Assembly (NCBI GenBank): GCA_964187785.1
Contig: OZ076417.1
Coordinates: forward strand, 36,890,001-36,954,000
From: Amphiscolops sp. MND2022
Lineage: Eukaryota
DNA length: 64,000 nt
Reading direction: 5' to 3'
The notes under the pieces were generated by a model, which had not been told where the DNA came from, did no database searches, and saw only the letters and a list, made by a program, of their open reading frames with translations. A program made the translations under genes and the position numbers. Within the stretch, counting starts at the first letter, position 1. Each line of letters starts with the position of its first letter. Below are positions 5,802 through 48,754 of the stretch, piece after piece.

Positions 5802-6009
5802 TGTGGAAAAAGTTGAAAGTTTTTAAAAGAGTTACTTACGAGTGGCTTCATCAATTTTGATTGGTGTTTTATTTATCACGCGAATTGTTACCGTTGGACG
5901 AGATGGGTGGTGAATTTGAATTTGGAGATCAATCGTGAAGAGTAGTTGAGAAAAGTTAAAGTTGGAAGGCAAGTGTTCTATATCAGTTTTGAGAGCAGAT
6001 CTAATAAGT

Positions 6010-16900: not shown

Positions 16901-17598
16901 TAATTTCGTAGCGTTTTTTCGGCGGACTTGGTACTTCATGTGTAGTATCAGGAGGAGTATCAATTTTTGAAGAAGTGGAATGTTCAGTTTGTTCAATTTG
17001 TTCTGAAGAATGAGCATTTACTTGATCAAGAATTTCAAGAAAGAGAACTGGAGAGTCATTCACGGAGGTTGTGTGGTGATATCAGAAGAAGATTGTTCGA
17101 GGTGATTTAGTTGATCGAGTTGTGCTTGTCTCATTTTGAAAACTTCGGAATCTATAAAAATTACTAACGAGTAGCTTAAGCAACTTTCGTAGGTGTTTGT
17201 TTTGTCACCCGAAATGTTACTGTTGGATTATGTGGACGATGGATATGAATTTCAAGATCAATTGTGAAGGGTAGTTCAAAAGAGAGTTAAGTTGAAAGAC
17301 AAGCATTCTATTGTAGTGTTGGAAGCAGAATGATTTTAATTTTAAAAGATGGTGGAGGAAAAGGGTAATTTGATTTAGCATATACTTTGATTGGACTGTC
17401 AGTATCATCGTTGACTGAAGCGTGATCAGCTAAAGTGTCATTTTGAGTAATTAAATTGTCATTTTGGGTTGTATTGGCAGTTAAATAATTAAGTGGAGTT
17501 GGATGTTGTTCTCGTGAGGAAAGAAGTGTAGAGGTTCGGTAGTTAATTTTGGGTTGAGAAAATTGTTGCCTCTTTGGAATTAATTCGAATCTTGTCAT
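13915..17598 (-). pseudogene. Cluster of about 5-6 decayed accessory ORFs between env and the 3' LTR
   Basis: ORF pieces 17308-17598, 16641-17063, 16129-16452, 15809-16132, 15186-15500, 14654-15016 and 14042-14233; most have frame-conserved homologues in 2420-6000. Confidence 0.65.
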
Positions 17599-19969: not shown

Positions 19970-20560
19970 CTTTGCAATATGTTAAAGTGGGAAGGTTAGA
20001 GTCTCGTTCAAGATCAATATGTACAACTTCAAAAGGAGCAGGAATAGTTTTGTGTTCTATTTTTGCTACGTGAAATACTGGATGTGAGTTGAAGCCTTGG
20101 AATTTGACTCTAACTTCAAACTTTAGTTCTAGAAGTTTCGAGTCCTTTAAGTTCTGTTTTTTTTTCTTTCATTAGAAACAAATCGGTATTTGTAATAATC
20201 GATCTGTGAGAACTGGAAAACGAGGATTGTTTTTTGGATCGTATATATTAATTCCGTCAACTCGAATGGGTTAGTCTGCAAAATTATGAGTTGGAGGTCT
20301 GAAATGATCTGCAGTAAAATTTTCAGGTACTCCAATATAAGCAGGGAGAAGAGTAGGTAATTTAACTTCAGAGAAAAGATTTCACGAAAAGAATGCAGTT
20401 TGAGCATCCGAAGATAGTAATGAAGGGTTCCAAGACCAGATGTAAAATATGAACATAAAGTGAATTTGGGAATTCTTGTGATGGTAGATAGTCAGAAATT
20501 TGTCTAAAAGGTTTGATAGTGATGTAGAAGGTTTTTCAAAGGGTTTTAGTGGAGGATATA
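19920..20560 (-). pseudogene. Unknown ~190-aa domain between integrase and env
   Basis: One frame with only 4 stops: FMFIFYIWSWNPSLL...VRVKFQGFNSHPVFHVAKIEHKTIPAPFEVVHIDLERDSNLPTLTYCKVVFYNPYSG. Confidence 0.55.
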
Positions 20561-21499
20561 GTTTTGAAGAATTTGTACTGATTTCTGAATTTAATTGTAA
20601 TGGAGGTAGTTGTGTATATTCAGTATCAGGAGTATATACAAGATTGATTTGAGGTTGGGGTCTTACAGTTTAATTAGCAGTAGGTTGTTTGTAATTTACG
20701 TAGCGTTCAACAGATTCAGGGTTTGTTGTATGGACTAAAGGAGTATTAATTGGTGATGGTTGAGGACGAAGAGTAAAAAGGAGTTCAGTTACTGGTGGTA
20801 TTAGAAGAGGACGATATAGAAGATGTATCAGTTATTTGTGATCTTGTTCTTTTGGACGGAGTTACAGGAGTTACATTGCGAGTTTGAGTTGTGGTAGTGA
20901 TTTGACGTTCAGTACTAGTAGATGGACTAAAAGAAGGACATATATCAGAAGAAGAGTCCAGGATTATAGTGTGTACTCTTTTTATTTTCACTTTTTCAGT
21001 TAGGCTAGATTCAGTTTCAACAATTTCTCATCACTTTTTATCGACTAGTTTTTATTGAGCCAGTCGAGTGAATGATTATTTGTAAAGTTTTGAAGGTGGT
21101 AAAAAAGTCTATATTCTATTTTTGGTTGACGTCTCAGATGACATCGAGTTTTGGTAGTTCTGACTATTGGAGGAGGAAGTAAATTAGATTGATGCCGAGG
21201 TGTCGTGATCTGTCATTAGATATGTCATTTTGAGGGGTTTTAATTATCTTTTTGAAAGATGAGTTGTTGTGTTTGACAGGTGAGCTGCCATTTAAAGAAG
21301 GACTTGTGAATTCGTGATTGGATGTAGTTGAGGGTGTAATAAGTTTTTGTGGTGAGCCTTCATGAGATAGCGATTCATTGGTATTAAAAGGGGAAGAATC
21401 ACTATTTGCATACTTTTTTTTGGTTTTGGGATGTTAAATTGGGTTGAGTCTGAAAAGCGCATAATATTACGCAACTGTGGGTACAAAAGTGGTTCTTTT

Positions 21500-22700
21500 G
21501 GGTATTATGGGATTAGGTGATTTCTATGAACATGAACTGTAGAGCCATCTTGTGGAAGAAGTTCGTATGTAACGTCAGAAAGTCTGTCAAGACTTTTATA
21601 TGGTCCATTCCGAAGCGGTTTTAGTTTGTCAGAAATAATGAACGTCAAAAAATATTCGTTTGAGAACAAAGGTGCCAATGGGACGTATTTTACTTTCATG
21701 ATAGGTTTTGGTAATACATGCATGTGAGTTTAATTTTTCGAGAGTCTTTTCATATACTGTAGAATCAACTCGTAACATTGCAGTTTCTACTGCGAGAAAC
21801 CATTGTGGAATCGGTTTTGAAGGAGTTCTGTAAAAGAAAGGATATAAATCTGTTTTGTCAAAATGAGAGTGTTCTGGAATTTGAGAACAATATTTAGAAA
21901 TACATAGTCTAGATGTGTTTCGGTTAAGGTTCAGATCAAAGGTAAGTGGTATTTTGGGTTGTGTGTGAAAAACAATTTCGTGAGGAGAAACATTGAGTTC
22001 AGAAAGAGTTTGAGAATTGTGTGCGTAAGCATACATGTGAACTTGGAATGCCCAATCTTCAGGTGTTTCGTGAAGGAACATCCGTAAGTGGGTTCCAAGA
22101 TTTCTGTTCTGTACTTCTACAAGGCCATTTGTCCAAGGGGCATAGGCTGTTTTATGTGAGTGTCTAATTCCAATAAGTGTACAAAGGGGTGCAATTTCGT
22201 TATTGACATATTTTGATCCTCGATCAGTAACAAGGTATATGGGTGGACCAAATTTAACAGTCCAATGGTGTAAAAGAGTTTTTGTTGCTGTTTTAGCGTT
22301 ATTTGCCTTAATTGGTACTGTAACAACAAAGTGACTGTAAGCATCAAGTATAACATGTATGTAGGATTTGTTGTGTGGAGGAGGGTTGAAAGGTCTTTTT
22401 GTATCCATAGAAATGCGGTAGTTGAAAGACGGAGCATGTTCTGAAAAGAATTGCGTAGGAGCAGTTTGGATTTTCATTTTGAAGTGTTTTTTTGCGTTGA
22501 TATACAATACAGTCATGTATGAAATTGGAGAGCCACTTTTCAAGATATGGAATATTGTAATATCAAGGGATTGTATTGTAGGTGATTTTGATACCTGTTT
22601 GAGAGTGTTCAAGGAGTTTTTAAAGACAGTTCGAAACATTCGAAAAGGAAAACAGATTCAGATAGTATCGCGTATGATTTTGGATAAGAGGTATGGTTTG
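21500..22700 (-). pseudogene. pol: Integrase (rve core plus GPY/F motif)
   Basis: ORF 21629-22639 has the D(VILDAYS), D(VTDRGS), E(GLVEVQN) triad; KLKPLRNGPYK...HRNHLIP in ORF 21505-21723. Confidence 0.95.
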
Positions 22701-23415
22701 TTGCAGGAGACTTTGTTTTTGTTGTTTATAGGCTGAAAAAGTTTGTGGAATCTTCAATACAAAGGTACGAAAATCTTTTGTATTATGCATGTAAGAAAGG
22801 AGTGCCAGTAATGAGGGGTATGAGAAATTCAGGTTTATCTTTTCAGGTGTTTACCAAGAATATACAGTTCTAAGAACTGGATCTTGGGATTGTTGTTGTT
22901 GAAGAATATTGATATCCAATGAGTAATCATCGGGAAGAAAGAAACCTTGAAAGTAATTTTTGTACTTAAAAAAGGAAGTATCATAAAAAGGTATTCTTTG
23001 TGAAGAATTTGTTTCAGGTCGAGAAGATGTTTGTACGTTTATTGCAGATGTGAATTCTTGTGGAGTGGTGGACGTTGGTTTTTTGATAGTGGATTAGGTT
23101 TTTTCATGTAAGGTTTTTTCGGTAATAAAAGATGAGTTTTGTTTGGGAATTCTAGTGAAAATGTGTTTTTCACCGTCACTTGTAATATCAGTCTCATTGA
23201 GTAAAAGAGGTTGTTGATGAAGAAATTTATTGTTATTTTTGATAGGTGTTTGAATTTTGATTGAAATGGAGTTACAGATTTAAAAGGAGTTTAGAGGTTT
23301 GGCAACAAAGTCATTTCCTTTATCATTGATAGGTAATGAAAATTGATCGGTAACATAACCAGCGAGAATTAGATGAGAGTCAATTTTTGATGTGGCAAGA
23401 CTTCATTTTGTTTAT

Positions 23416-25165
23416 TTAAGTAATGTACGCGTTTAAGTGTACTATCTTGTAATATTGCAAAATCAATAGTTTTTTGTGTTTCAATTGGTTTATTTGTACT
23501 TCGGTTTTTGTAAAATAACGACCTAATATGTCGGCAACAGAGATTTTTCCAGGAGTATGAAAGATTTTGTGTTTTGAAAACTTTGTTAAAAGCAAATGAG
23601 CTCGGTAAAAGCATAGGCTAAGATTACCTATTTTTGTAAAACATTGCGAAAAAGGTTTATGATCGGTGAAGACATGTATTGGATGTGGAAAACCAATGAT
23701 AAGAAAATCGTATATTTGAAAAGCTTGTACTATACCAAGAAGTTCGCAACCAAGCGTGGAAAGTTTTTGTTGTCGAAGGTTTTGTATACAAGAATTGTAA
23801 GATATAACTTTCATTTTGTTTTCTTCATTTAGATGGGAAAGAACAGCGCCTAATCCAATAAGCGAAGCGTCTACTGTAATGAAAAATCGATGTTTTGTAT
23901 TTGGTATTTTAAGTTCTGTTTCAGAAGTGAGAGACGTTTTAAGTTTTTGGAAAAGAGTTTCGTGTTCGTCTGTCAATGAAACGCATGAGAGCGACTGTTC
24001 CAGTAGGAAAAAGGAGTTTGTGGACAGCTGCAATTTTTGAGTGAATAGGTTTAATTGTAATATAACCAATTTCATGTCCGAGAAATTTAACCTTGGGAAG
24101 CATGAAAAATGATTTTTTCTGGAACCAGCTTGAGGTTGTTTTTTGTACTAATATTATGTAGTTGTTCTATAAGTTGAAACATGTGTTCTTCAGAGTTTGA
24201 AAAAATAAAATATCATCAATATATAAAAGAGCAAAACCTTGTTCTATAAGAGTTTTAAAGAAGGTCGACATTTGTTGAAAACAACTTGGAAGTCCTTTAA
24301 GAAAGCCTTCGTATGGAACCCCAAGAGTTTGTCACCAAATGAGAAACTTGTAAGTTTGATTGTTTCTTTGTCAAGAGGTGTATATGCATAATCAAACATG
24401 AGGTCTATTGCACATTTGTATTTTTTATTTGCGCGTCCTAATTGAGGAGCAAGAGGTTCAAGAGGCTAAGATTCATCAGATTGTACTGTATTTGAGTTAA
24501 GATGTCGAGCGTCTGATACGCATTTCATAGAGTCTCCTTTCAGGACATATTGGATATATTGAGGTTCCGATTTCCAATGAAAAACCCAAATATTATCATG
24601 TCCATGATAATACCCTAATACACAAAGTTACTCATACCTACCATCCTGAAATCACAGAAATTATCCCACAAACAAATTACTCCTTACAATATAAAGATGA
24701 CACAGTTCCTTTTCACCAATTTTCGCTACACCAAATATATATGACAAATTATGACACACCATCAATTACTTCACGTCTTTATAATGTACAACCTGTTTCT
24801 CACACTTCAAAACCTCGAATTTTTCCTTCACTACTATACACTACAGAAAATCTCAAAATTAAAAACAGTCTGACCTTACAGACACTGAATAAATTACACT
24901 CTGTAATTTCTTACTTAATTTCAAAACATGCTATGCAACACATGAAAACGATGTTGGCAAAACTGCAAACGCCTTCTGTATCAAGTTAAAAACCAACGCT
25001 CAACTTATTACACAACGTCTTTCCAAACCAATTCACTACCAAGACAAACTCAATACTCTTCTGAAATAACTAGAAAATTACAATATTATAAAACAAATTG
25101 GTTCTTCTCCACAAGACAAACCATTTTATGGCACAACTTATTTAAACCCTCTTATTATTATACCT
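23416..25165 (-). pseudogene. pol: Reverse transcriptase and RNase H (RT N-terminus lies in the inverted segment 24541-25165)
   Basis: YIDD at 24212-24223; KCVSDARHLN; AIDL; RNase H ITVDASLIGLGAVL...ELLGIV...FTDHKP...VADIL. Confidence 0.95.
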
Positions 25166-25435
25166 TAGGTAGTGTTGCAATATGATTTGTAGAGTTTTTT
25201 ATAAGGATTGCACAGGTGTCTGGTTTATTATCTGTGAAAACTTCTGTAAACGTACGTAATTTAGTAGAGAAGTAAGTATATGGAATTGTAGGGAAGAGAT
25301 GGTTTTGTAGTGTCGTTGTAAAATGAAGGTTATAGTAGTTCTTTATTGGGAAGTGTGAATTTTTTGAAGAATTAGGTTTCGAACGTATTTGTGTTTTAGA
25401 AAGAATTGACGCCAATCATCTTCTAATGTTGTGTT

Positions 25436-25705
25436 TTAAGTTATAGTTACATCGTGCAAGTAGTTTTCTTCGGTTTGATTTGCAACAGTTAAAGTTTTTG
25501 AGGGAATGAGTATATTGTTCTGTTTAATATCTAGGACTTTTGCAATATTAAAATAGGTGGGATAATTTAATACTGATGTAGTAGCACCGCTATCTAAAAG
25601 GAATGGTATTTCTAATCTTGTAGGGTTGTCACGTTGAATTTGGTTTGATGGTGTATATATGTATAGAGAGTAGGACCAACTTGTAGGTGTTACAGCATTT
25701 GCCAT
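25436..25705 (-). pseudogene. pol: Aspartic protease
   Basis: IPFLLDSGATTSVLN retropepsin motif in ORF 25436-25705. Confidence 0.9.
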
Positions 25706-25919
25706 TTAAGTTGGGTTATAAATGTCTACTTCGAAGTTGATTGGATCATTTTGGTGTTGTGGTTGTTTTGTATTAAGTTTGTTTCTTGTATTTGAATGTG
25801 AACGAGATCTAGAAAACCTGTAATCTCTTGGTCGTGAAAGTGGTCTCTTGGAAGAAGTATATTTTGTAAAATTGTTGTTATTCCTTGAATGTGATTGTGA
25901 TCTATATCTGTGACGAGAG

Positions 25920-28879
25920 TCATGTCTGTAAGGGGATGTAAAAGGAAGATATGTAAGGAGAGCGATAGGATCGTGAATCTCGTTTTTTTGTTGTCATATC
26001 GTGATCGCGTGTATTGTGGAGGAGTAGCACTTTTATGATAACTGAATCAATCTCTGGATGTAGTGCGATATCTGTTTTCTGAAATACATTTTTTGTTGTA
26101 ATATTTATTTCGTGAATTATTTCTACTTTGATAACGTGTGTCATATCGTTTTCTTCTGTCGTTTGCAAGAGAACGAAAGTACTGTATAAATGATTTTTGA
26201 GGAGATTTCGATCTAGCATAAGCATCTCTTTTATCTTCATCACTCGTTGTTTTTTGAAACTAGCAGAGATGGATTGATTTGTTCTGTGGCAATAGAACAA
26301 TACTTTTTATATGCAGGTTCATTTTTGTTATTTGGGTGTCGAGGTTGTGTAAACATAAGTTGTTCTTGCTGTGAAGAGTCAAGAGTCTAAATTTATAACT
26401 GTTTGTAATGTTATTTACTTCAAGTGCACGATCACGTGTTCTAATTTTATCATTTGCTTTATCTTCGGCATCAACGAGCTTTACTGTTGTGTGAAAAGGG
26501 ATGGAATGTTCTAAAACAGTAGTTGTGTCTTTCACTTGTCTTTTGTTAGCAAAGACTTTATGGTTTTTGTGGAGTATCTTTGTGAAAAATTCATTACATT
26601 TTAAGTTAATAGTAGATGCATTCTCAATACACCAGCCGTTTTCAACTAGCTGTTGAACTTTACATGCAAAACAACGTACTGTTTCATTATTCTTTTTAGT
26701 GAAATTGAGAGCTTCTACCTGAGCATAGTAAGCATCTTTCTGGGATGCGAGTTGTTTTTTAAAGGGTTGTCCAAAAGCGTGCCAATCTTGTTTATAAGTG
26801 TCGTTCAAACGGAAGTACCAACTGAGAGCTGTGCCAGTTGAAGAGCATTGTATGAAAACCATTCTTTGAGCGTGCCACAATTTATATTCGTGATCAGACA
26901 TAGGTTGTAAACGGAGTGAAATGTTACACATGCCTCAATGTGATGTAAATATTCTTCTAGTGGATAGTTATGATTTATGCCAACAAAAGGTTTGATAGGT
27001 TCAGAGATTGATAAAGAAGAATTTATTAAGGTTGGTCCTGAAACTGTAGACTGAGGTATTGTAGAAGGAGGGACTGTATTGTACATAGGTATATTAGAGA
27101 CATTTGACGATATTTTTGATTGAGTTGTAAAAAGTTGTGTCCATGTAGCAATAATGTGAGGATTAGTTCTAATAGTTGTAGAAGGAGGATTAGGTGTCTC
27201 AAATTGAGTGTTTTGTAACATGTGTCTTGTAGTATTTGATTGTTGAGATGTAGAAAAGGAATTTAAGGTGTTTTGGCTGTTGTTTGTTGTAGATTGTTGT
27301 GTATTATTAGGATTTGTACTTATAAGACTGTACGATAATGCATTAGTTGGAATAGTTTGTAGTGTAGGTATAGAAAGACTTTTAGAGGTAGTGTAGTTCG
27401 GTCTTGCGTTGGAGTGAAGAGTATTATTAGTTAAAGCGGTTTGTATATTTTGTGTTTGAGTATTTTGGGCAGGTGTATACGCTAAGGTTTGTACAATTGG
27501 TACCGTATTTGTTGTTTGTGTTTTAGAAAAACCTTGTTGACGAGGATCGTGTGGAATAGTTTGAGTAGAATACTGTGAAGGAAGAGGAGGTGGATCTTAA
27601 TTTCGAGGTGAGGTTTCTTTTGTTTGAAATGGTTGAGTTATATGAGTATTTGATGTAGATAAGGTAGAAGTATTGTCTTGGATTGTATCATAAGTAGTGT
27701 AATTTTGGTTTTGATCATAGAGTGGATTTTGTGTAATGTTGTGTACAGGAATTTGTATTATCTTCGTTGAATCATTTGTTATTGTAAGACTTCGTGGATT
27801 ATTCAATGTGATATCAGAGAGTTCTGACACATTTTGTATTGTAGTAGTTTCAGAACGATCTTGTACATTTTGTAATGTTGTATTAGCTTGTTGTGGATCA
27901 GGTACTATATTAAATTGTTGAGGTACTTGATTCTGAAACAGGTCTGTAGTGTCATCTTGATTGAAATGTGAAATACTTTGTCCAGTATCATGTTGTATAA
28001 TAATAAGAATTTATTCCTTAAGCGAAGGTTCAGTGATGATATTAGAAGTAATATATGATCGATTGTCTGATGTTTCAGAATGTTCTAGAATAAAGTTATA
28101 ATCAAAGTTGATTAGATTAAAATAATCTAATGTTAATTGAGGTGAGATCTCTGTAGTGCACATGTTTGCTTCTATTATTGATTATAAATGGTAGGAGTTC
28201 AGTTTCTGTTAGTACTTAAGGAAAGTTGATGTAAGCGTTTTGGTCTTGTTGTTCCTATTTTAAATGGTAGTTAAATCCGAACAATTTTAATAGAAAACGT
28301 GAGAAGACTTTTTTTGTGGTACTGTATCTTCGTTAAGTTTGATGTTTCGAAAGAATCTGTTTTAAATTGTTTACTTTGTAATATATCTTGTTGTAACCAA
28401 TAATGAGGATTGTCATGTCGTGAGATTTTGGTTGCGCAATATTGTACTTCAAAGTACTCATGCTTTTCCTTGACACTTTCTAGATGAAAAGGAATATAAA
28501 TTAGTGTGTCTAGATTCTCATCATGTTCTGTAAGTTTGTCCATATAAGTAATGAAAACATCTTGTATAGAGAGGTTTATATTTTGTGTGTGAATTGTTCT
28601 ATAATGTGTTCCTGGGTTTATGCCATGGACTGGGTTAAAAATAATTTGAAAAGGGTTTTGTGAATGTGTTATTTTTGTTGTTTTGTAGCGAAAGTAGTAT
28701 AAGTAAGAGTCACAATGTTCTCTTAACAGAGGAATAGTATTTATATTACGAGGTTCTGCTTCAAATGAGAGTGGGTTTGTGTACTGAAATGTGATGTTAT
28801 TTAAAAATGGTATTACATCTTGAGTTAAAGAACGTTTTTGACGTTGATCTCTAGATATTGCAAATGGAGAGGGAAGCAT
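25920..28879 (-). pseudogene. gag: Long gag ORF (unknown N-terminal domain, T/P/Q-rich linker, capsid domain)
   Basis: TGTALSWYFRLNDTYKQDWHAF.Q.FKKQ..SQKDAYYAQVEALN..KKNNETVR is retrotransposon capsid-like; upstream pieces 26805-27221, 27597-27830 and 28271-28879; start position uncertain. Confidence 0.75.
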
Positions 28880-29700
28880 TGTGTTATTTAATAATTAATT
28901 AGAATAATAGGTTTGCCATAGAGGATATATGTACTGTAAAATAAGATGTTTTGTATTAAAGTTAAAGTTATACGGTATTTTTTGATCTACAAAGATAATT
29001 TGGAGAAGTATTGTAAGTATTGTACAAAAGATGAGAAGGAGTTTATTAGAAATGTAGGTATTAAGTGTACAAAAAGTATGATAGATACCAAGGGTTCCAA
29101 AAAGAGGTAGTACTATACTTGTAAGCATATAGAAGAAGAAAGTTATATACTAAAGTTTGGGTATAAAAAGTACTAGAATTTGTCACAGAAAAGAGCAAGA
29201 CCAGGAAGTAGTGCAGAAGAGAAACAAAGGCATTTAATGAATTTTACCATATCATCAGCTGAAGGCATTCATACAAATGAGACGAAAAGTTATGTTCTAA
29301 ATATTGTAATATGATATGTAAAATAATGAAATTTGTTTAGTATATTGTTTAGGGTTCAGACGTTATGAATTTTGTTCGTTAATTTGGATATTTTCATAAA
29401 ATATCTGGATCCGTTAACTTTGTTTTGGAAAAAGTGTTTTAGTTTGTATGTACTGTATAGTCTAGAAAGGATGAGGTGTATCAAAATGAAGTGTGGAGGA
29501 AATACATTGTGTATTGTAGGTGTTCCAACTTTTACGTTGATCCAAGCGGCTGGAACCAGAGTGTTTTTACTAGCAGGAATCGCTGGATAGCACTATAGAA
29601 CGCCAACACGTATCGCACGCCTGCGGTTGAAACGGAGAGAAGAGAAGAAACTACCAACACGAATTCACCCAGTGGTGGTTGGAATGAAAAAAGTTTTTCA

Positions 29701-29844
29701 ACTGACAGGAATTGCGTTCAATGACGCAGTCAGAACCAAAGAGTCTTAACTAACAGGGATTACGTTCAGTGACGCAGTCGGAACCAAAGAATTTTCATTG
29801 ACAGGAGTTACGTTTAGTTACGCAGTCAGAGCCATAGCAACACG
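29701..29844 (-). repeat. 3 x 48-bp tandem repeat in the 5' leader
   Basis: Units at 29701, 29749 and 29797 (a.tgacagg..tt.cgtt.a.tgacgcagtc.gaacca); the period is a multiple of 3. Confidence 0.9.
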
Positions 29845-30030
29845 AACTAATTTCAAAAAAATTGGTTGGAACGTTGAGGTAATAACTGTGTACGATACAG
29901 AGGGGAGGAGAGACGAACGAGGGGAGCAGATACGGTGTGTCGAACGAAGAGGTATCGGATCAGAAAGTTGAGAAAAGATGTCCCAAGAAGAGTGAAGTTG
30001 TGGCACTGGAGGGAGAGAAATGAGAATTTT

Positions 30031-36349: not shown

Positions 36350-37100
36350 TTATCACACGCATGTTTCCACATAGCAATTATTACAAGCTAAGCCATCATG
36401 CTGAAGTATTGGAGAATGCTGTATTGCGTTTATGGAAAATTGTTAGCTTCTTCGTAATACCGAAGTCGGAGAATGTGGTATTCGAGAAAATTCTGTAGTA
36501 CTTGCTGGTATCCCAGACAATCCTTATTTCTGTTAAACTTCCCACAGTTGAATGCGCGTTCACGACCTGCCAGAAACCTTTGTTAAAAAGCATTACACTG
36601 TTGCACAAAAGGAGTATTCGCGGGTGGCTTGTTCCTTAAAAACCAAAGCTGCAAAACCTTAGCAACCAAACTGTGGGCCTTGACCTGGAAGCTCTAGGAT
36701 CCTGGCAAACGTTGCCATAAAGTGTGCCAGTTCCGGACGCTCCATCGCCGCCTGCTCAACCGCTAGCAAGAGGTCTCTCGCTGTTAGTAGAGGCTGAGGG
36801 TCAGCCACTGGGGCTACCACAGCGCATCCATGGTGCAAAATGTTTCTACGTGAAAGTAGTTTTGGTCCCCGTTCGCCTGATTGTTTTCAATCTTATCAAG
36901 CGATGTTGCTATTGGAGTTCCAGCTCGGACAATCACTGGCAGTACTCCTGGTTTTTTTGTTTCGGCGTGTAGATAAGCCTGCTAAACTTCTGGCGGCGGT
37001 TTGTTGTACATTTGGGAGACCTGCGTTTGGCTGGTGGCAATAGGGCGGTTTGTTGTAAGAGGTGTTGGGCGAATAGGGTGCATTATAGTTTTATTTCTCG
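36350..37100 (-). pseudogene. Highly decayed gag C-terminus/protease-like fragment of an older LTR element
   Basis: Degenerate zinc-knuckle-like and xxDT protease-like stretches; many stops. Confidence 0.3.
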
Positions 37101-37528
37101 TCTTTCCAGTATACGAGTGATGAAACAAAGTTTAATATTATGTATGTTATTTTAACTAGTTTTTTTTCTAAGCTGTAGATTGAGCGTCTAGGTACTGCAG
37201 AAATTTAGGCTTAAATAGCGAGGAGCTATTTCGTTCCTCGGCACTTCAATTTTAATCGAAATGACTCATGTGACTCGTTGGTTATTTTACGACTTTATTG
37301 TCCGCTTGGACGTTCAAGTGGAGGAGAAAGGAAACGTGGGAAAGAAAAATGCTCGCGGGATTGACTAATGTCGGGAGGGAAAAAAGAAACTTTTGCGCTC
37401 GCACCAGCGAATGCATTCAACAAAGAAAAGAAAGGAAAAAATTTTCACGCGATTGCATTGGATATAGTTGCATTCAAAATGAGCTCTTTATTAGGCAAAA
37501 AAAATGGGGGAGGAGCTTGAGTTATGAG

Positions 37529-39825
37529 TTATAATGTTCGGCTAACGATTTCCGTCACAGGGAACTCTTTCCCTGGCATCTTACGCGGCTCCTTTGGTGG
37601 ACCTGACTTGGCCTCGTGCACACTTGAAGTTGCCGGCTGTGGTTGAGTCGGCAACGGAGTGGTCTCACGTAACTCCTTTGGGACGTCGTCTACAGCAGCC
37701 ACCGTGTCACACTGTACTTCGCCACCGCGCAGCCCTGCTGTCATCCGTCGTCGCACAGCGTAGATTTTCCCCCACTTGACCGTCCGCCCCACAACAGCTA
37801 TAATTATAAGCACAAACAAAGTAACACTGCATGTGAGAATAACATCCTTCCAAACTTTCCGGATGACTGTAGAATGGACTCAATCAACCTCTACTAGGAA
37901 AGGTTGCGCGATTGCATTCAGCATCTCTTCGGTCACTGCTCGATCCGGTAGACCAGCTAAATTCAATTTTAAATGAGAAGGTAACTCCTGGTGGACATCT
38001 CCCATTGCGAGGGAGGGACTACTTCTTCTAGGGATTTTAAATTGTCAAACAGGGGTCGTAGCAAAGGAGTAGGTAAAATGCGAACAATTTCACTACTGTC
38101 ACTTTCCTTACAATATAATAGGGTCGGGAGTAAAGAATAACCCGGCAATTGGGAGTTACAATCGCCCATTACAGGAAGGCCTTACTAAACAACTTTGGCA
38201 GCCGTGTATTCTTCTTTCTGCGCGATTAGTCATGTTCTGAATCATGAAACTCTCTTTGCGGAAGTTAGGAGGTATGTAGAGTCATAAAGATACACTGCCT
38301 GAGGTTGTTGAGGGAGTGCCACGACCTCTTGAGCACATAGTTTCAGGACAGTGGCGGGCAGATTGAAGAACAGACCTGTGAGACAGGAGGTTTTTTGCGA
38401 TTTAGTGGTTGAAAAGGGTTGTTTATAAAGTCTTAGGCGGTGAGTACCTACGACAGTGCGTCGATATTTCTTGTTCGCTAACCTCCGCGCAATTTGTTTT
38501 GTCCCACGACGTTAGTAAGTGCGCCTCACTAAGTTGATACTGCGTAGCCTTTTCAGTATTAGGAGTAGGCTGAGGAATGGCGGTGGCTCTATATACCTCG
38601 TGCACTCCATATCCTGTATACATGGGGATTTCCAACAATAGGTGCAATCCTTCATTCAATATCTACGCGTCCCTAACTACCACAAAAGACAATTAGGCGG
38701 CGATCAATTTTCTAGGTATAGCCTCATTTAATCCATTTACGTCGAATGAATCGAGTATTTTTACCAAAGTCGACGGAAGGATTAAGGATAACGGCCGATA
38801 TCCGTGCACCAGAGAAGCCATAGCGTCATGCAAAATGGATGCCTTATTTGCTAGCGAAATTCGTTTCTGATTAATATCATTTACTATAAGTCGATACTTA
38901 GTTGTTATGTTTTGGAACGCTGTCGCCATTATCAAGGTGTTTCGATGGCGATCCTGAGTTAGCCTCGCGACGCACTCCGCTTTTTCGACGTAGTCATGAA
39001 TTTCATCTACTACACTGTTAATCGTTCCGTTCAACACTTGACCATTTTTCTCCACGGTCTGTTTAAGTGCAACCAGTTCGCTAGTACTGACATCCACCGG
39101 CATTTGAACTGTGAGCGCTTCAAGCAACTCTGTCTTCAAATACAACATAGTTTCCCCCAAATACTCGACCTTCCGGGCCAACTCTTCAATTTTTCGGCAG
39201 GAATTTTACAGGTGGAACAGAACGGAATTAACTTATCCACAAAACATGATACTGAATCGGACCAAAGTTGGAAAAGGGGTCGAAGAAAAATTCGCGATAG
39301 CTCGCTCCCAAACATAGATCCGGCGATCGCGACAACAACGGATCTAGATAAACGGTCAGGTTTGCCGTTGGGAACATCGTCGACCGTATTATTGAAGAAC
39401 ACAGTTAGCAATTTTTTTATGGCCAGACAATCGTGCTGGAGCATATGATGGCTTTGGAATGTCTCCGCTAGACTATCTTGCAAGAAACGTTTCCAATACT
39501 CAAACAACTGAGGGTTAGCGCATTCTTGCGAGAACATCCGTAGGTCTACCTCGGTCAGCCGGTTTAGCGCACTTTCTAAGATTTGGTTCAACGGCTCCGG
39601 GTCTAAGTAGGGCACTTGGAGAAAAGGGAGGAAAGTTCACAGCGTTCTTACTGCCTTGACAATCACCACCGGAGGTTCAGGAGTAAATGCCGCTCCGAAA
39701 GTTGAATGGATTCCGCTGACGATACCTGGTCTTCCGAGTTTCCTTTGAAAATCGTAAGGATCGAACGAGTTTTCTCCATAAATACCAAAAATAAGGTACA
39801 AAACCAGGAATAATAGGGTTTTCAT
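37529..39825 (-). pseudogene. env: Envelope protein, class I fusogen (baculovirus F / errantivirus env-like)
   Basis: Signal peptide MKTLLFLVLYLIFGIYG; RLSR|SVVVAIAGSMFG furin-like site and fusion peptide (39343-39354); heptad repeats; LHDAMASLVHGY.PLSLI.PSTL; LHLLLEIPM..VYRATAIPQP; TM FVLIIIAVVG plus cytoplasmic tail. Confidence 0.8.
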
Positions 39826-40490
39826 CTTTAGGATGAGATGGTTTTAAGGGGTTTAGGCACCCGAAGCTAACTAGTTCGAGAAGAAAAATCTATTATTTAT
39901 TTTTTTGTTTCTTGTTATTTTCCTAGTTGATGAGGTATTTTTGAGGACTTCGGAATACAGAGGAGAGCTACTGTATAATGTAAGGAAGAATTCAAGACAG
40001 AGAAGGCAACTGGCGTATAAAACGCGTATATAAAAAATGTGAAGTGGTGAACGTTCACGAGCGTGCGTCGCAAAAAGGTGATCATCACTTCACGTACCGA
40101 TTGGCGTCCGCATTTTAGTCAGCCTAATCGGCTTTCAATACGAGGGCGAGTTTGCAGTACTCCGAATAGTCATACTCGCTAAACGACCTATTCGAAGTCT
40201 CCGGCGCAACTTTCGTCGAGCAGTGTAGTCATCGATTCCGAAACGAACGGGCGGTTTACGTTGCCGGGACCTACGAGGTTCCGAGCTACTCTCGCTCGCT
40301 TCTACTTCTACTATTCTAGGAGAGGGGTCACCACCCTCCGAACTCTCCTCGTTGACATGAGTTTGATCAGCGACTGATACTTCGAGGATGTCGACATATA
40401 ACGGATTAGGTTCGGGGCATTCCTCGTCACTCGCACTTTCAACGAGGGCGCGTCATCAAACGTCACGTGCGTTTTATTACGAGCGGCTTG

Positions 40491-41700
40491 TTACTCAGCG
40501 GTCGTCGGATTGAACACATATAATGGGAGACCATCTATTTGACTTTCAATCTCCTCCGGCAATTGTTCGTAATTAGAGGCAACGAGTTTCCTCCGGCGTT
40601 CGGACCTGCGAGGCGGAATATCACCGACAAAAAGTTTTAACCGGTGGAAAAGTACTTTCTGCCATTTTTCGGGAGCGCTTTTCTTACAGATACGGTGATT
40701 GACTTCGCTGGTACGACTCAAGACTTCATAGGGTCCTTGCAGATAAAACATTCGCGACTTTGTCTGATGCGGTTCTAGTAGCCACACGAGATCATCTCCT
40801 GGTTCGAAAGGTTCGCTGTGCACTTTGCGATGATAGTAGTCTTTTTGACGGCGCTGTTTTTTCCCATTGTCATTTGCGCTTGTTCATGCACCTCGTATTG
40901 TTTTTCTTTTAGTTCGGAAGCTGGTTCGCAAACCTTAGCTCTAATCGAGGATCGCCAGGCGGTTTTGGGTAATACAAATCGATTGGATACTGTGCCGTTT
41001 TGCCGAACAACATCGAGAACGGAGTCATTCCTGTCGTCCTATGCACCGTCGTATTATATACAAAAACAACATGCAGCAAGTTTAAGTCCCATTCTTGGGG
41101 TCTTTCTGCACAATACTTGGAATTTGTGTCGGCAATTACGCGATTGAATCGTTCGACCTGTTCATTGCCTTGGAGATGATACAGAGATGTTCTCGTCTTA
41201 TCAATCAAAAAAATTTTACAGACGTCGTGCATCATTTCATTATTAAAGTTCGTCCCTTGGTCGGTGTGAATCACGTCGGGAGAGCCTAACTTAGTAATCC
41301 ATTCCTCTACTATCACTGTTGCTACTGTAGTGGCAGTCATGTCTTTCAGCGGAACCGCCACAACGTATTACTAAAATGTACTTAGACAACGAGCACATTG
41401 CTAACGTGACTGGTCCTTGAATGTCGGCCGCCATTACTTCAAACGGTGCCTGCACTTCAATGGGAAGTAATTCCGCTCGTCGCGGATTACCGGCTGTGGA
41501 ACGTGCTGCGCAGCGAAGACAACTCGCTACATGTATCTCTACGCTCGAACGTAAAGCAGGTCATCAAAGTCGTTGCTTAATGCGTGACAATGTTTTTTCT
41601 ACAGCGAAGTGACCGCCGCTCAATGGCGAGTCGTGTAACTGATAAAGTATCTCTTCTCTCATTTCCTTTGGCACGACTGTCTGCCAAACTTCGTGTGAGC
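40491..41700 (-). pseudogene. pol: Integrase (HHCC finger, rve core, GPY motif)
   Basis: LHDSPLSGGHFAVEKT; IHTDQGTNF; GNEQVERFNR; YNTTVHRTTGMTPFSMLFG; LQGPYEV. Confidence 0.95.
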
Positions 41701-42084
41701 GGTTATTGGGACGCCACCTTCGATACAATACGTTGTTTTCTAATGTTAAACTTTCCCAATTGCTCCACAGTACCAATGCCTCGGGGCAATTCCATGAGAA
41801 CGCTATTCCTTTGGAAATCGAATTAAGACCGATGTTAGTAATCGAATCGTTTCTGGACAATTCTGCGTCTTTCGTAGCTCGGAGAAGGGTTCCTATCGCT
41901 GGATCTAAGCGTTGTTTGTTGGCCAGGTCGCTGTCGGATTTAGTCCACGATATACGCTTTCCCACTTGGCCCGTTGATAACATTTCCTTGGGCATCGCTG
42001 TGGCGCAGCACGTATCAGGGTCTCGGGAACGACTACCCGAAGTCCGAGGATCTACGTTTTGATATAACGGTAAACCTTGTTCGG

Positions 42085-42500
42085 GAGTGTAAAACGTTAT
42101 CGTACAATACATTCCTTGAAATTTTGTCCCTAAGCAAATTGCCACGTTAATCCGTTCCAAACGGTCATCGATACAGCCTATCCTAGGCATTGCAAAAGCC
42201 GACACTCCATGAATAATTGCATGGGACCACATTCGCCTTAAGCACTTTTTGAAATCATCGTACGTGGCTACGTTGCGTTCGCTTTTCCTAGTTATCAACA
42301 CGTAAATGTTTCGTGCTTTCTCTTCGTTCCTATACACAGGAAAACCACCGACTTGATTCAATGACTCGGGCAGCGGTCGCAGATGTGAAAACCTGCATAC
42401 AAAATCTGTCATTGGGAGAATGAGCACGCGCATCTCAGCAGATGTACAGAGGAGTAGCGCGTCCCCAGCGTTGATAAAATTTCCGGAATTATAACGGACG
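42085..42500 (-). pseudogene. TARG1/OARD1 (Poa1p-like) macrodomain embedded in Pol
   Basis: RNIYVLITRKSERNVATYDDFKKCLRRMWSHAIIHGVSAFAMPRIGCIDDRLERINV...FQGMYCTITFYT parallels the OARD1 pattern IYYLITK...PTY..L..SL..M.SH....GV..LSMPRIGCGLDRL.W..V......F....ITVYT. Confidence 0.85.
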
Positions 42501-42719
42501 ACTTCTCTCGGAGCACGATGAAATGTAAAAGATCGTGTCTGTTTACGAGCTCGCCGTCCTCGTCGGCATCGTTTTTCTTACTTCGAGCTGACTTAACATC
42601 ATGTTCTGCTCCTAGTAGAGCGGTGTCAAAACTTTCAAAGTCGGGAATGGGACCTCTCAAGTCCTCTTCCTCGCCAGGCATCCATTCTGGCACGTCATTT
42701 GGCCGCCTACTTAATCCCT

Positions 42720-44014
42720 TCTCGTTACAGTGGTGTTGGCTTGCTCGATGCACTGTTTTGTAGTCGTATTCTTGCAGCTTTTGTATCATTCAGAACGTCA
42801 TTCCGTCAGCGTTCTGCCGGAATAGCCACTGGAGCCTCGCGTGTTCCGTTCTAATTATACCCTTCGTTCCGTATATGTACGGTCTAAACCACTGTACAGC
42901 TTGGACTACGCCGAGAGCTTCCCGTTAAGTAGTGGCGTAATTAACTTCGGTTTTTGATAATACTCTATACTCGAAAGCAATCGGGTACTTGGTTCCATAT
43001 ACTACTTGCGACAGCACTGCTCCAAGGGCGGTTTCGCTTGCGTTCGTACCAATCACAAAAAGGAGCGAAAAAATCGGGAATGCTAATGTGGGACCGGCTA
43101 GCAGTCGCTCCTTAAGCGTACAGAAAGCTTCTTCGTGCTCGTCGTTCCACGTAAATTTCGTTCCTTCACTAGTTACCAAGTATAGTGGTCGAGCCACTCC
43201 AGCGAAAATTTTCACAAATTTTCGATAGTAATTTCAAAATGCCGTGAACGAGCGGACTTGTGTCACAATTTTTGGTCGTTCCCATGTGCGAATGGCTTCC
43301 AACATTTTCGGGTCTGGCTGGATGCGTTTTTGATTAAAGACGTGGTCGAGATAGTGAACTTCGTCTTGGAACAGACTTCATTTTTTCGGCTTCAATTTCA
43401 AAGCGGCCATTCTTAAAACTAGAAATACTTTCCTCAGGTGAGATAAATGTTTTTCCGGTGTTTTATTGTATGTCAAGACGCAGTCCAGAAATAATAACAC
43501 GAACTTATACAAAAATTCCTTGAAGACATCGTTCATGTATCTTTGAAACGTCGGATGAGCATTAGTCAAGCCGAACGGCATTTTCAAGCATTTGTACAGT
43601 CCTCTATCGGGAGTAAAAAACGCTGTTTTATGTCGATTCTCCGGTGCGACAGGGATTTGCCAATAGCAATTGGCCAAGTCGAGGGATGAGAAAACTCCCG
43701 CTCGTTGTAGCGCGTCTATCGTCTGGGCAATCCGCGGCATCCTCCACTGTCACTTCGTTCAACTTACGATAGTCAATACACATCCGATTAGAGCCGTCTT
43801 TCTTCGGGACCAATGCAGTTGGACTGCTATATGGACTTTTACACGGAACAATTACTTTCTTTTCTCTCATTTCGTTTATCTCGGCTCGGATCGCGTCCAC
43901 TTTATGCGGAGCGATTTTGTACGGCGGGATTTTTATTGGCGGCAAGTTCTCTATATCAATTTTGTGTTCAATTCCCACCGCTGCCCCAAGGGGGTCCTTG
44001 GGAAGAGAAAACAC
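42720..44014 (-). pseudogene. pol: Reverse transcriptase and RNase H
   Basis: KKDGSNRMCIDYRKLNEVT; FSSLDLANCYWQI; KMPFGLTNA; catalytic YxDD decayed to FLDC; RNase H TNASETALGAVLSQ. Confidence 0.95.
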
Positions 44015-44264
44015 ATCGCGATACTCGCGAATCAGCGTTCGCAGTTCTTCCTTGATTTCGACGTGGCTAAATTGAGAATTTCGTCAACGTCTCTCTCCAA
44101 TTTGTCGTTTTGTTCGGTGACCACGGAGACGTGATTCGGAGCGGTTTTTGTGTCGAACACATAGGCTTCCTTTCCAGGGGAAGAAACATGCCTTCCGCCG
44201 AGTTGCACTGGCTTTATGACCGTAGAACGGTCCGGTTTTTAATCACGAGCTATTGCGATACAAT

Positions 44265-44642
44265 TTATTCTATCATGAATTTCAGTCCCATAAGGACTTC
44301 TGGGTATAATCCATCCACGACAACGAAGTCGTCCTCGGCTAAGAGATCTCCGTTTTTTACCATTGCCTTCATGAGTCCTTCAGTGGACATAACGTTGCCT
44401 ACCGGACCTATCAACAAAATTTGGTTCGAAACGATCTCATTTCCTTGCACAGTCGATAGAGTACTACTGATTAAGCTGTTACTCTCTCCGGTGTCTACTA
44501 TATCCCAACAGCGTTGTCCCTCTACTTGATAGGGAACAAGCAAGCCTGAACTTTTGACGATTTTTCCTGCAGCTCTTGCATGCGGGGCATTCCATGTCGT
44601 TAGCTTTCGCACCCGCATTTTTGACTCCATTGAAATTTTCAA
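44265..44642 (-). pseudogene. pol: Aspartic protease
   Basis: IVDTGESNSLIS and EVLMGLKFM retropepsin motifs. Confidence 0.85.
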
Positions 44643-44959
44643 GTACTTCCGGGTCTCCTTCCGGAAAAATTTTCACGGACCCTGGTTTTAAGCAATTAAA
44701 ACCCTTTTCGGAGGTTTCTGCTAGGGGACTATTTACATTTGAGGGTTCCAAATTAGTATAAAAACCTCCGGGTCGTGAATCTCGGCACATCTCTCCCCAA
44801 GTTTTAGGGTTTACGTAACGCAACCTACTTTCAATTCCGTATCGATTTTCAACGCTGCGGGACCGTGATCGGGCGCGATACGGCGTGGAACTTTTGTTTA
44901 GAGTTATAGCAGACCTAAGAGGATTGGGGTCACAGCAGGAGTGGAACCTGCTACTGCGC

Positions 44960-46300
44960 ACCCGGCCGTTTCCAGTTTAATTGGTCCTTTTCAGCCCTCT
45001 GCGGGCAGTCTAGGCAAAATGTCTTCATTCCTCACAACTAAAGCATTCTGCAACAGATGGGGGTGGATTAGATATAGTTACATTGCCCGAACCTGTCCAA
45101 ACTTGAGCCGCACTACTGTTAGGAGTTATTTGAGGAAGTGGAGGCTGGGGCGGCCACTGCTGAGACTGTCCATCACCGCAACTCTGCGCACTCCGCAATG
45201 CTCTCACAATCGCTGCGGAGATTGAGTTAGGCAGATCTTGTATTTGTTTTACAAAGAAGTCTGTCTGTTTGCATATATTGGAACCTAGACAGTATAAGCG
45301 ACTTGCAACGTTAGTCATTGAGGTGTGTTGGGCCAAGAACTTTTCGTCGATTTCGGACTTATTCGAGTTGGGATAACCAGCTCGTACTACGTCTAGTTGA
45401 TCGCAATCTTCCTGACCATATCGAATTTTGTCCGACCGAAGAGGCCTTTTATTTTCAGAGTTTTCTGAATCAGTTCTTTTGCTCTTTATAAGATTTCACA
45501 AAAATTCCTCTCTGTTTCATCTTCATACAATTTCTGTTGAATTCGAGAATCAAAAAGTCCTTCCAAAAAGTGATCACGCAGATCAGGGTCTCTTTCAGCA
45601 AGAGTTTTTTCAGAAAAATCTAATTCTCCCAAATGACGGACTCATCGGGCATTTTTTTAAATTTTCATTTTCTAGCTGTCGAATTGCCTTGAATTCGGTT
45701 CGTGTAGCCCGTTTACTGTTGCATTTTAGGTTTCCATTCTTCCAGCAACCACTCCTAGTGGGGTGCTGTTCGGCCTGGTAATTTTTCAACAAAACAGCGC
45801 GGAACTGTTTCGAATTCTTTCACTGTCCAAGAAGTTAAACAAGCAGGCAATGCGGCAGTGGCTTGTGAATCACTACAACCACTTGCTTTAACGACGGATT
45901 TGTAGTGTTTAACCCAGAACTCCCAACGATTAAAATCTTTTCTCGGAAATTTTTCCGGTTTGACAGGCGATTTTTGGTAAACTGCTTTAGTTTTTCCACT
46001 ACTCACGAGGTAAAATGATAAAGATTCATCTGAATCATATCCGGCCTCTAATGTTACATGTTCCATTTCCAACATCAAATCCATCAATTTACGGTTCGCT
46101 GTCTCTTGCCGTTCTTTTCCGGTCGTATATTTATCCCAAGAACAAGTAAAAGCTGACTTACTAGAGAGGGTTACTACCATCTGAGCTGTCGCTTTCGGCG
46201 GGCTCGGAAGAGTCCTGGGGCGAGTCGTGGTCGTGGGTTTCTTCTTCTGACATCTCTGCGGGTGAGAAACGAACGTGGGCGTGGCAAAAAACAAGGATGA
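44960..46300 (-). pseudogene. gag: Gag (capsid plus zinc knuckle), frameshifted
   Basis: PEKFPRKDFNRWEFWVKHYKSVVKASG.SDSQATAALPACLT; ECFSCEE.RH knuckle near 45030. Confidence 0.8.
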
Positions 46301-46387
46301 CGGAAGATAAGATGATTGAAAGTAAGAAAATCAAAGAAAAGTTGAGGGAACGCAAGAAGGGGGTTGCAACAGAAATAAAGGAATTAG

Positions 46388-46404
46388 CCCACCCAGGAGC
46401 GCCA
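46388..46404 (-). promoter_or_regulatory. Primer binding site TGGCGCTCCTGGGTGGG
   Basis: 1 nt after the LTR end (...TTCTACA); complement reads as a tRNA-like 3' end CCCACCCAGGAGCG-CCA; isoacceptor not determined. Confidence 0.8.
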
Positions 46405-46405
46405 A

Positions 46406-46807
46406 TGTAGAATTTTGAAAAGTAGCTTTAATAGTCTGTCGAAAACTCCACTACTACTCAATTAAACCAAAGCGTACCTCTATATACGAGACAATGATAG
46501 CGCTGAGCATTCTCATAAATTTAAAACTCTAAAAGTGAATTTCAGAGGTGGTGGGGTTTTATTGCATCATATAGTGCCCAATTCCGTTTCATTCTGCTGA
46601 CTTGCAAAGGAGGTGTCTCGTGTGCTCTCGCTGTTAGAAAAGATGCCTAAGAATGCCTAGTTGTTTTCATTCATAGACACTTAAGATAAGGGGGTGTGAT
46701 ATTCTGAGTCACTACTAACTTATGTTACTGGTCTTTACTAACTTATGTTGTCGTCAACTCGTGTGAATGCCCCCTCTGATGACTGGCGGAACATCCCACT
46801 GTAAACA
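46406..46807 (-). repeat. Probable 5' LTR of the macrodomain element (plus-strand right boundary uncertain)
   Basis: Starts TGTAG adjacent to the PBS; no second copy in the window. Confidence 0.55.
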
Positions 46808-47127
46808 AATCGATTGGAGTGCTTTCTCAATACTTTCAATGAACGAAAAGAGCATGTATGCAGTTCCTTTACCAATGGCTAATTCTGGGGATCATTTTCA
46901 ACTGTTCAAAAATGGGTGTTTCCGTGCCTGGGGGGCAAAACTAATAGTGTTTTCTAAAAGATTCATCTATGGCCTACAAATTCAGTATTATTCAACATTC
47001 ATGTGTTGCGACTCCTTCGGGTAGCAAAACAGCATCAAAGTGGGGATGGTCAAAAACAGGGTCTCAACAAGTCAATTTTTGGGCAATTTCGGGTCGTTTT
47101 TCGCATCGAGGCAGCTAGAACCAGCCC

Positions 47128-47327
47128 NNNNNNNNNNNNNNNNNNNNNNNNNNNNNNNNNNNNNNNNNNNNNNNNNNNNNNNNNNNNNNNNNNNNNNNNN
47201 NNNNNNNNNNNNNNNNNNNNNNNNNNNNNNNNNNNNNNNNNNNNNNNNNNNNNNNNNNNNNNNNNNNNNNNNNNNNNNNNNNNNNNNNNNNNNNNNNNNN
47301 NNNNNNNNNNNNNNNNNNNNNNNNNNN
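47128..47327. other. Assembly gap (200 N)
   Basis: Run of n; adjacency across it is not guaranteed. Confidence 1.
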
Positions 47328-48619: not shown

Positions 48620-48754
48620 CGACGACCTATTTGTCGTCTACTTCTTTTCAATAGTTGGATCAATGGTCAGCCACATCACGGTAGGGGCCCTAACTTGATG
48701 TTGCTGACCATTGATCCAACTTTTGAAAAGAAGTAGATGACAAATAGGTCGTCG
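48620..48754. repeat. Long fold-back hairpin (59-bp arms, 17-nt loop)
   Basis: 48620-48678 is the reverse complement of 48696-48754 with 3 differences (one is G-T). Confidence 0.95.

What the first reader, a model, noticed from the sequence alone, without database searches (positions are those of the whole stretch)
42085..42500. TARG1/OARD1-like ADP-ribosylhydrolase macrodomain inside Gypsy Pol
Seen: an ~130-aa insert between RNase H and the integrase zinc finger, containing LIT(R)K, TY and MPRIGC.DDRL motifs, in frame with integrase in ORF 41564-42433. Known: TARG1-class macrodomains remove ADP-ribose from proteins and DNA, and many RNA viruses use macrodomains to counter PARP defence. In OARD1 the catalytic Lys (LITK) and Asp (GLD) map here to R and D. 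Some retrotransposons are reported to carry macrodomains. Inference: an enveloped retroelement with a counter-ADP-ribosylation module packaged with RT/IN.
Basis: partly seen in the sequence, partly recalled or inferred. Interest (0 to 1): 0.75.

Follow-up and report, generated by a model that had tools for sequence, protein, structure and literature searches.

The report
Disabled ADP-ribose eraser kept by retrotransposon
This broken copy of a virus-like jumping gene carries, inside its enzyme polyprotein, a domain predicted to fold like the human ADP-ribose-removing enzyme TARG1; its whole lineage has replaced the residues that bind ADP-ribose yet still conserves the domain, so it is likely a repurposed non-enzyme rather than the counter-defence enzyme proposed.

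Summary
Window 42086-42505 (-) is a TARG1/OARD1-type macrodomain between RNase H and integrase of a Gypsy element with an env-like ORF (PDB E=8e-13; model TM 0.84 to TARG1). The window copy is dead, but more than 30 of 150 genomic matches lie in open Pol frames of 1,600 aa or more.

The hydrolase reading is doubtful. The lineage lacks the pocket residues: G43 0/22 rows versus 113/115 in other TARG1-like domains, G123 0/24 versus 113/115, H32 0/19 versus 101/107; I44 is Pro in 21/23. The window's family also has Arg for catalytic K84. Glu at G43, I44 or G123 abolishes binding and catalysis in TARG1 (PMC5928194). Yet selection persists: dN 0.30 with saturated dS, equal to two families in this genome that carry an intact-pocket domain at the same Pol position (0.31).

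Best reading: a pseudo-macrodomain, likely a structural or protein-contact module (0.6). This scan noted TARG1-type domains in Gypsy Pol on other DNA before; none of the five notes shown describes a pocket-dead form.

The parts
42086..42505 (-). TARG1/OARD1-fold macrodomain with replaced ADP-ribose pocket (about 140 aa) in the Pol bridge
42410..42427 (-). Loop equivalent to TARG1 M40-A45; no glycine left, Leu at G43 and Pro at I44
   Evidence: HMMER alignment; column counts
42287..42289 (-). Arg at the position of catalytic K84 (family A trait; family B keeps Lys)
42164..42172 (-). Diphosphate-loop equivalent: Ile at G123, Asp at L124, Asp at D125
41564..42577 (-). 337-aa open frame: macrodomain, linker, bridge 'mini' domain and first half of the integrase zinc finger; ends at two stops (41558-41563)
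   Evidence: Integrase_H2C2 E=2.6e-8
40219..44987 (-). pol remnant (protease, RT, RNase H, macrodomain, integrase) broken by several frameshifts and stops
   Evidence: tblastn of a natural intact copy, 12 pieces in the element; Pfam
44954..46321 (-). gag remnant, broken
   Evidence: CCHC knuckle in the intact family copy
37568..39843 (-). env-like ORF3 remnant, broken; likely F-type
36671..37204 (-). Truncated ORF4 of unknown function; the copy ends here, no 3' LTR found
46405..47127 (-). Partial 5' LTR, internally deleted, running into an assembly gap (N 47128-47327)

Best explanation
The window holds a dead copy of a Gypsy element whose Pol carries a TARG1-type macrodomain between RNase H and integrase; the lineage has replaced the ADP-ribose pocket residues and still conserves the domain, so it likely no longer binds or cleaves ADP-ribose and likely serves as a folded structural or protein-contact module. 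Shown: homology, position, pocket replacements, purifying selection, and intact-pocket versions at the same position in other families. Inferred: (1) an ancestor captured an active TARG1-type hydrolase into Pol; (2) on the stem of this lineage Pro at I44, bulky residues at G43 and G123 and an added Asp closed the diphosphate site; (3) a new set of lineage-invariant residues (mainly domain positions 32-51 and 106-117) became the working surface; (4) the domain is made as part of Pol and, after protease cleavage, stays on RT-RNase H or integrase or is released. The partner is not identified.
For: Pocket: G43 0/22 lineage rows vs 113/115 others, G123 0/24 vs 113/115, H32 0/19 vs 101/107, I44 is Pro in 21/23, L124 is Asp in 24/24. 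G43E, I44E and G123E each abolish ADP-ribose binding and activity of human TARG1 (PMC5928194 passages); K84A is inactive (PMC8501950 passages). The K84 column varies in the lineage (18/24 Lys; Arg in family A) against 112/115 elsewhere. Selection: families A vs B give macro dN 0.30, pS 0.83 (saturated), like their protease (0.32) and below flanking linker and tails (0.57-0.61); within family B pN/pS 0.19 over 25 unique segments. Control: families D vs E, intact pocket at the same position, give dN 0.31 at similar RT divergence, 0.10 vs 0.08. The lineage is one clade on a very long stem (1.3-1.85 changes per column, 100/100), as expected for a shift of function. The domain is no longer basic (net -6 to +2 in 9 lineage rows vs median +4 in 107 others).
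Against: No biochemistry. The published dead mutants are Gly/Ile to Glu, not the residues seen here. K84 and D125 are both kept in family B, by far the larger family (20 of 20 family-B loci read), and D125 in 21/24 rows; C33, S35, D37, T83, G121 and C122 are mostly kept too. ALC1-like hydrolases can work without the Lys/Asp dyad (SCO6735, PMC9411070 passages). The 24 lineage rows are not independent (one origin, many near-copies of family B). Purifying selection does not separate a new function from a need to fold. No pocket geometry was measured on the model.
Confidence: 0.6

Rival explanations
1. Active ADP-ribosylhydrolase with a remodelled pocket that counters host ADP-ribosylation of element RNA, cDNA or protein, perhaps active in family B and weak or dead in family A.
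For: K84 and D125 kept in family B. Same substitution rate as intact-pocket domains. Mechanistic diversity in the ALC1-like class (PMC9411070, PMC7050489 passages). At least five other Gypsy families in this genome carry intact TARG1-type domains.
Against: Both glycine loops and H32 replaced in all lineage rows, Pro at I44, Asp next to D125 in the phosphate loop, K84 variable; binding-dead TARG1 mutants map to three of these positions.
Confidence: 0.15
2. Vestige: the domain has no function of its own and is conserved only because it must stay in frame and fold inside Pol.
For: dN (0.30) is well above RT, RNase H and integrase (0.06-0.15) and close to the RNase H-macro linker (0.31).
Against: Retained at full length in all five Pol lineages compared, 52-62% identical at saturated dS; many lineage-invariant columns differ from the TARG1 majority; a functionless domain would be expected to be deleted over that span (inference).
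Confidence: 0.15
3. Nucleic-acid or poly(ADP-ribose) binding module that works through its surface and not the pocket, as pocket-dead TARG1 still binds RNA.
For: TARG1 G43E and G123E bind RNA like wild type (PMC5928194 passages); the domain sits between two nucleic-acid enzymes.
Against: Net charge is neutral to acidic in 8 of 9 lineage rows (-1 to -6; one +2), whereas TARG1-like domains are mostly basic. Net charge does not exclude a local basic patch; surface charge was not mapped.
Confidence: 0.1

Closest known systems
Human TARG1/OARD1/C6orf130 (PDB 4J5R, 4J5Q, 4J5S; ALC1-like macrodomain class)
   Same: Fold (TM 0.84, rmsd 2.6), 32-34% identity, LIT and MPRIGC motifs, Asp at 125.
   Different: G43, I44, G123, H32, M40, A45, P91, L124 replaced across the lineage; K84 is Arg in family A; not basic; embedded in Pol.
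Gypsy families with an intact TARG1-type domain (this genome: D and E at the same RNase H-integrase position, C after integrase, F between protease and RT, G after gag-protease; elsewhere P0166, P0145)
   Same: TARG1-type domain inside a Gypsy polyprotein; D, E and P0166 share the RNase H-macro-integrase order.
   Different: They keep G43, I/V44, K84, G123 and D125 (29 of the top 30 loci, one of them the single-copy host candidate). A shared capture with D/E/G is not rejected (p-AU 0.47) but not shown.
Env-carrying Ty3/gypsy 'ancient errantiviruses' (PMC13524379)
   Same: gag-pol-env order; RNase H followed by a 'mini' bridge domain before integrase; likely F-type env.
   Different: The main text never uses macro, OARD1, TARG1 or ADP; its bridge survey lists pseudo-RNase H and mini domains only (section 7). 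Figures and supplements not seen. Family A is about 17.8 kb with 3.7-kb LTRs and extra ORFs.
Macro-domain ORFs of fish epsilon-like endogenous retroviruses (Basta 2009, as cited in PMC4977317)
   Same: A retroelement that captured a macro domain.
   Different: Described as additional ORFs in Retroviridae, not a Pol insert; class and activity not stated in the passage seen; primary paper not held.
RNA-virus macrodomains (alphavirus nsP3; virga-like and seadornavirus proteins)
   Same: Macro fold; lower Foldseek matches.
   Different: 10-22% identity; the alphavirus domains bind and hydrolyse ADP-ribose (abstract starts in listing).

Membership tests
TARG1/OARD1-type (ALC1-like) macrodomain | Minimal macro fold homologous to TARG1 | tested here: met
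   phmmer E=8e-13, family B E=3e-20; Foldseek ranks 1-8 all TARG1
TARG1-type ADP-ribosylhydrolase (active enzyme) | Catalytic Lys84 | tested here: not met
   Arg in the window and in 8 of 8 family-A loci read; Lys in 20 of 20 family-B loci
TARG1-type ADP-ribosylhydrolase (active enzyme) | Catalytic Asp125 | tested here: met
   Asp in the window and 21/24 lineage rows
TARG1-type ADP-ribosylhydrolase (active enzyme) | Pocket loop G43-I44 | tested here: not met
   G43 0/22, I44 0/23 (Pro in 21) vs 113/115 and 104/115
TARG1-type ADP-ribosylhydrolase (active enzyme) | Diphosphate-loop G123 | tested here: not met
   Ile or Val in 24/24 vs Gly in 113/115
TARG1-type ADP-ribosylhydrolase (active enzyme) | ADP-ribose binding and hydrolysis in vitro | not testable with these tools
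   needs bench assay
Ty3/Gypsy (Metaviridae) | LTRs and Pol order protease-RT-RNase H-integrase | tested here: met
   Pfam order in intact copies; 3,680-bp LTRs 99.8-99.9% identical in two family-A copies
Errantivirus (env-carrying Gypsy) | Third ORF encoding an F- or gB-type fusion glycoprotein | tested here: inconclusive
   Signal-like and membrane-like segments, 13 Cys, no R-x-K/R-R site; no Pfam env or PDB hit; E=1e-41 to an ORF with Baculo_F 23 bits, cut-off 24.1
Errantivirus (env-carrying Gypsy) | Infectious enveloped particles | not testable with these tools
   no data

The most novel reading that the evidence does not exclude
A recently expanding Gypsy lineage turned a captured ADP-ribose eraser into a pseudoenzyme with a new essential job, such as a decoy or docking surface for a host ADP-ribosylation factor. 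Meanwhile at least five other Gypsy families in the same genome keep the active enzyme at four different polyprotein positions. Together this would point to a host ADP-ribosylation defence against LTR retroelements and to two different ways of escaping it.
Probability: 0.25. Interest if true: 0.8.

Novelty: new variant of a known kind. Interest (0 to 1): 0.52.

Why it matters
Whether animals use ADP-ribosylation against retrotransposons is open. This genome offers a matched comparison: Gypsy families with an intact TARG1-type domain and a lineage with a pocket-dead one at the same place in Pol, under equal constraint. Assaying the natural domains side by side would show whether catalysis is what the elements keep. 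It is also a warning for annotation: a TARG1 hit with Lys/Asp retained need not be an eraser.

Tried and rejected
Single-sequence AlphaFold failed (pLDDT 37.5).

Complex prediction of the macrodomain with RNase H and the mini/zinc-finger piece gave no verdict (0.10 and 0.13, mark 0.34; alignments not used); it is not counted either way.

Sequencing-run search: no RNA holder listed.

I considered that the 'pseudo-RNase H' of insect errantiviruses (PMC13524379, section 7) is this macrodomain. Not tested directly. In P0166 the macrodomain is followed by about 170 further residues before the zinc finger, which suggests separate domains.

I considered that the pocket changes are decay of the window copy. 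Rejected: intact family-A copies share them. I considered a frameshift in the first loop. Rejected for the same reason.

Origin of the domain is unresolved: neither grouping with D/E/G (p-AU 0.47) nor with the single-copy host candidate (p-AU 0.29) is rejected. The trees are quick trees (careful search unfinished); one search dropped 20 of 139 rows.

Searching the genome with P0022 found no close copy (best 51%), so some lineage rows likely come from another assembly or species.

Ten literature searches listed no paper on TARG1-type domains in Gypsy Pol. The library lacks most subscription papers; the 2013 TARG1 structure paper and Basta 2009 were not held.

Full report
Observation. The frame 41564-42577 on the minus strand is open for 337 aa and holds the stated motifs. 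Residues at 42071-42481 match human TARG1/OARD1 chains in PDB at E about 8e-13; the sixth hit is noise at 0.54. An AlphaFold2 model built on an 86-row alignment has mean pLDDT 85.6, and the first eight Foldseek hits are TARG1 structures (best TM 0.84), then DarG. Because most alignment rows are TARG1-like, the model is not independent of the sequence match. TARG1 numbers below are read from the HMMER alignments and anchored on G43, I44, K84, G123 and D125 as numbered in the papers.

The element. The window copy spans 36671-47127 (-), is about 88% identical to intact copies, and has gag, pol, env-like ORF3 and ORF4 broken by frameshifts and stops, a partial 5' LTR and no 3' LTR. A search of the own genome scored 150 of 1,308 candidates: 10 matches at 77-100% identity (family A, four in open frames of 1,614-1,619 aa) and 140 at 52-55% (family B, more than 30 in frames of 1,600 aa or more by my hand count). 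Two family-A copies have 3,680-bp LTRs that are 99.8-99.9% identical, so the family moved recently. Pfam gives protease, RT, RNase H, zinc finger, integrase core and p58 C-terminal domain, with the macrodomain at residues 851-983, between RNase H and the bridge mini domain. ORF3 has signal-like and membrane-like segments and is homologous to an ORF with a sub-threshold Baculo_F hit, so an F-type envelope is likely but not shown.

The pocket. I cut 134 domains (80% or more of the profile) from the 190 proteins returned, added five genomic rows, and counted residues. In the 24 rows of this lineage G43 is kept in 0/22, I44 in 0/23 (Pro in 21), G123 in 0/24 (Val or Ile), H32 in 0/19, and L124 is Asp in 24/24. 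In the 115 other rows the counts are 113/115, 104/115, 113/115, 101/107 and 97/115. K84 is kept in 18/24 (Arg in family A) and D125 in 21/24. The lineage rows are related and include many near-copies, so this is one evolutionary event, not 24. In human TARG1, G43E, I44E and G123E lose ADP-ribose binding and activity, and G43E and G123E still bind RNA (PMC5928194, passages). K84 and residue 125 form the catalytic dyad (PMC7050489 and PMC9411070, passages) and K84A is inactive (PMC8501950, passages). Against a quick conclusion: family B keeps both K84 and D125 (20 of 20 loci read), several other pocket-lining columns are kept, and SCO6735 is active without the dyad.

Selection. Between families A and B the domain is 62% identical, with dN 0.30 and saturated synonymous sites; protease gives 0.32, RT 0.08, and the following linker and C-tail 0.57. 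Within family B, 25 unique segments from 40 of 42 loci give pN/pS 0.19. Window against intact copy gives pN 0.07 and pS 0.175. These are simple counting estimates, not codon models.

A control in the same genome. Pfam Macro and a TARG1-like query found further families. D (1,646 aa) and E (1,617 aa) carry the domain between RNase H and integrase, as here. C carries it after integrase, F between protease and RT (position inferred from macro at 319-454 and RT from 637), and G after gag-protease. All keep H32, G43, I/V44, K84, G123 and D125 (29 of the top 30 loci; C and F read). D against E gives macro dN 0.31 at RT dN 0.10, the same as A against B. A single-copy 315-aa ORF with an intact site is a candidate host TARG1. 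Outside this genome P0166 has RNase H-macro-integrase and P0145 a C-terminal macrodomain, both with the glycines, Lys and Asp.

Phylogeny. The pocket-dead domains form one clade on a long stem (12 rows, SH-aLRT 100, quick tree of 119 rows with 20 dropped; 100/100 in a careful tree of 24 rows). Their RT-RNase H also forms one clade (97/100), with D/E and P0166 unresolved beside it. Whether the domain shares one capture with D/E/G is open (p-AU 0.47; host candidate 0.29). Retroelement-borne domains do not form one group.

Mechanism. Shown: homology, position, replacements, constraint. Inferred: capture of an active hydrolase, closure of the diphosphate site on the lineage stem, and retention for a non-catalytic role through lineage-invariant residues. 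The domain is neutral to acidic, which favours protein contact over nucleic-acid binding. The partner is unknown. I put this at 0.6, a remodelled active enzyme at 0.15, a folding-only vestige at 0.15 and a nucleic-acid or PAR binder at 0.1.

Relation to what is known. Macro-domain ORFs are reported in fish endogenous retroviruses (PMC4977317, passage). The survey of env-carrying Gypsy elements (PMC13524379: abstract, section 7, first part of section 5, term search) does not mention macrodomains in its main text; I did not open its supplements, which may list these families. Ten searches listed no paper on TARG1-type domains in Gypsy Pol; passages of PMC4695847, PMC8195603 and bioRxiv 2021.11.30.470311 held nothing relevant. 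From recall only, domain databases already label such inserts in transposon proteins, so the capture itself is probably not new. Earlier AI notes of this scan describe TARG1-type domains in other Gypsy elements, read as erasers; look-ups by this sequence and for a pseudo form returned nothing.

Verdict. Real feature; interpretation partly wrong. It has the TARG1 fold but fails three defining features of the active enzyme in the window's family. It is best filed as a conserved pseudo-macrodomain, a new variant of a known kind. Interest 0.52.

Noticed in passing
L033:4855-5859 (-) and L031:724-1728 (-), inside the 3,680-bp LTRs of intact family A: Antisense 335-aa ORF with a weak JmjC hit (E=0.042) and an H-x-E...H pattern. 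It is homologous (E=3e-15) to a 382-aa antisense ORF between pol and env of family C (L048:2912-4057). No tblastn match in the window.
   Followed up: partly
L032:8523-9440 (+), L037:8915-9760 (+); window 36671-37204 (-): ORF4 (306 and 282 aa) after env in families A and B, no Pfam hit.
   Followed up: no
L047:2438-8212 (+): Family C Pol has a weak dUTPase hit (E=0.003) after the protease and an intact TARG1-type domain at the C-terminus.
   Followed up: partly
L107, L108, L110, L113: Four further Gypsy-type families with intact TARG1-type domains at three polyprotein positions.
   Followed up: partly
L112:4556-5500 (-), G000:C1:46433556-46434500: Single-copy, intronless 315-aa frame ending in an intact TARG1-type domain; candidate host TARG1.
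   Followed up: partly
P0062, P0110, P0143, P0175, P0183, P0184; P0066, P0083, P0142; P0099: TARG1-like domains fused to DNA ligase or LIG3-type BRCT domains, to a PAM2 motif, and to NADAR. P0166's domain nests among the PAM2-type proteins, hinting at transfer between elements.
   Followed up: no
window 21938-24045 (-): An older, diverged Gypsy remnant (26-31% to family A RNase H and integrase).
   Followed up: no
window 2001-6000 and 14001-30000: Long stretches with strong GC skew (0.27-0.5 in most bins), with an 83-86% duplication 4490-5732 / 15807-17060.
   Followed up: no
window 48620-48754: Near-perfect 67-bp inverted repeat with a 1-nt loop.
   Followed up: no
L038:6406-6637: 29-bp tandem array in a family-B LTR region.
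   Followed up: no
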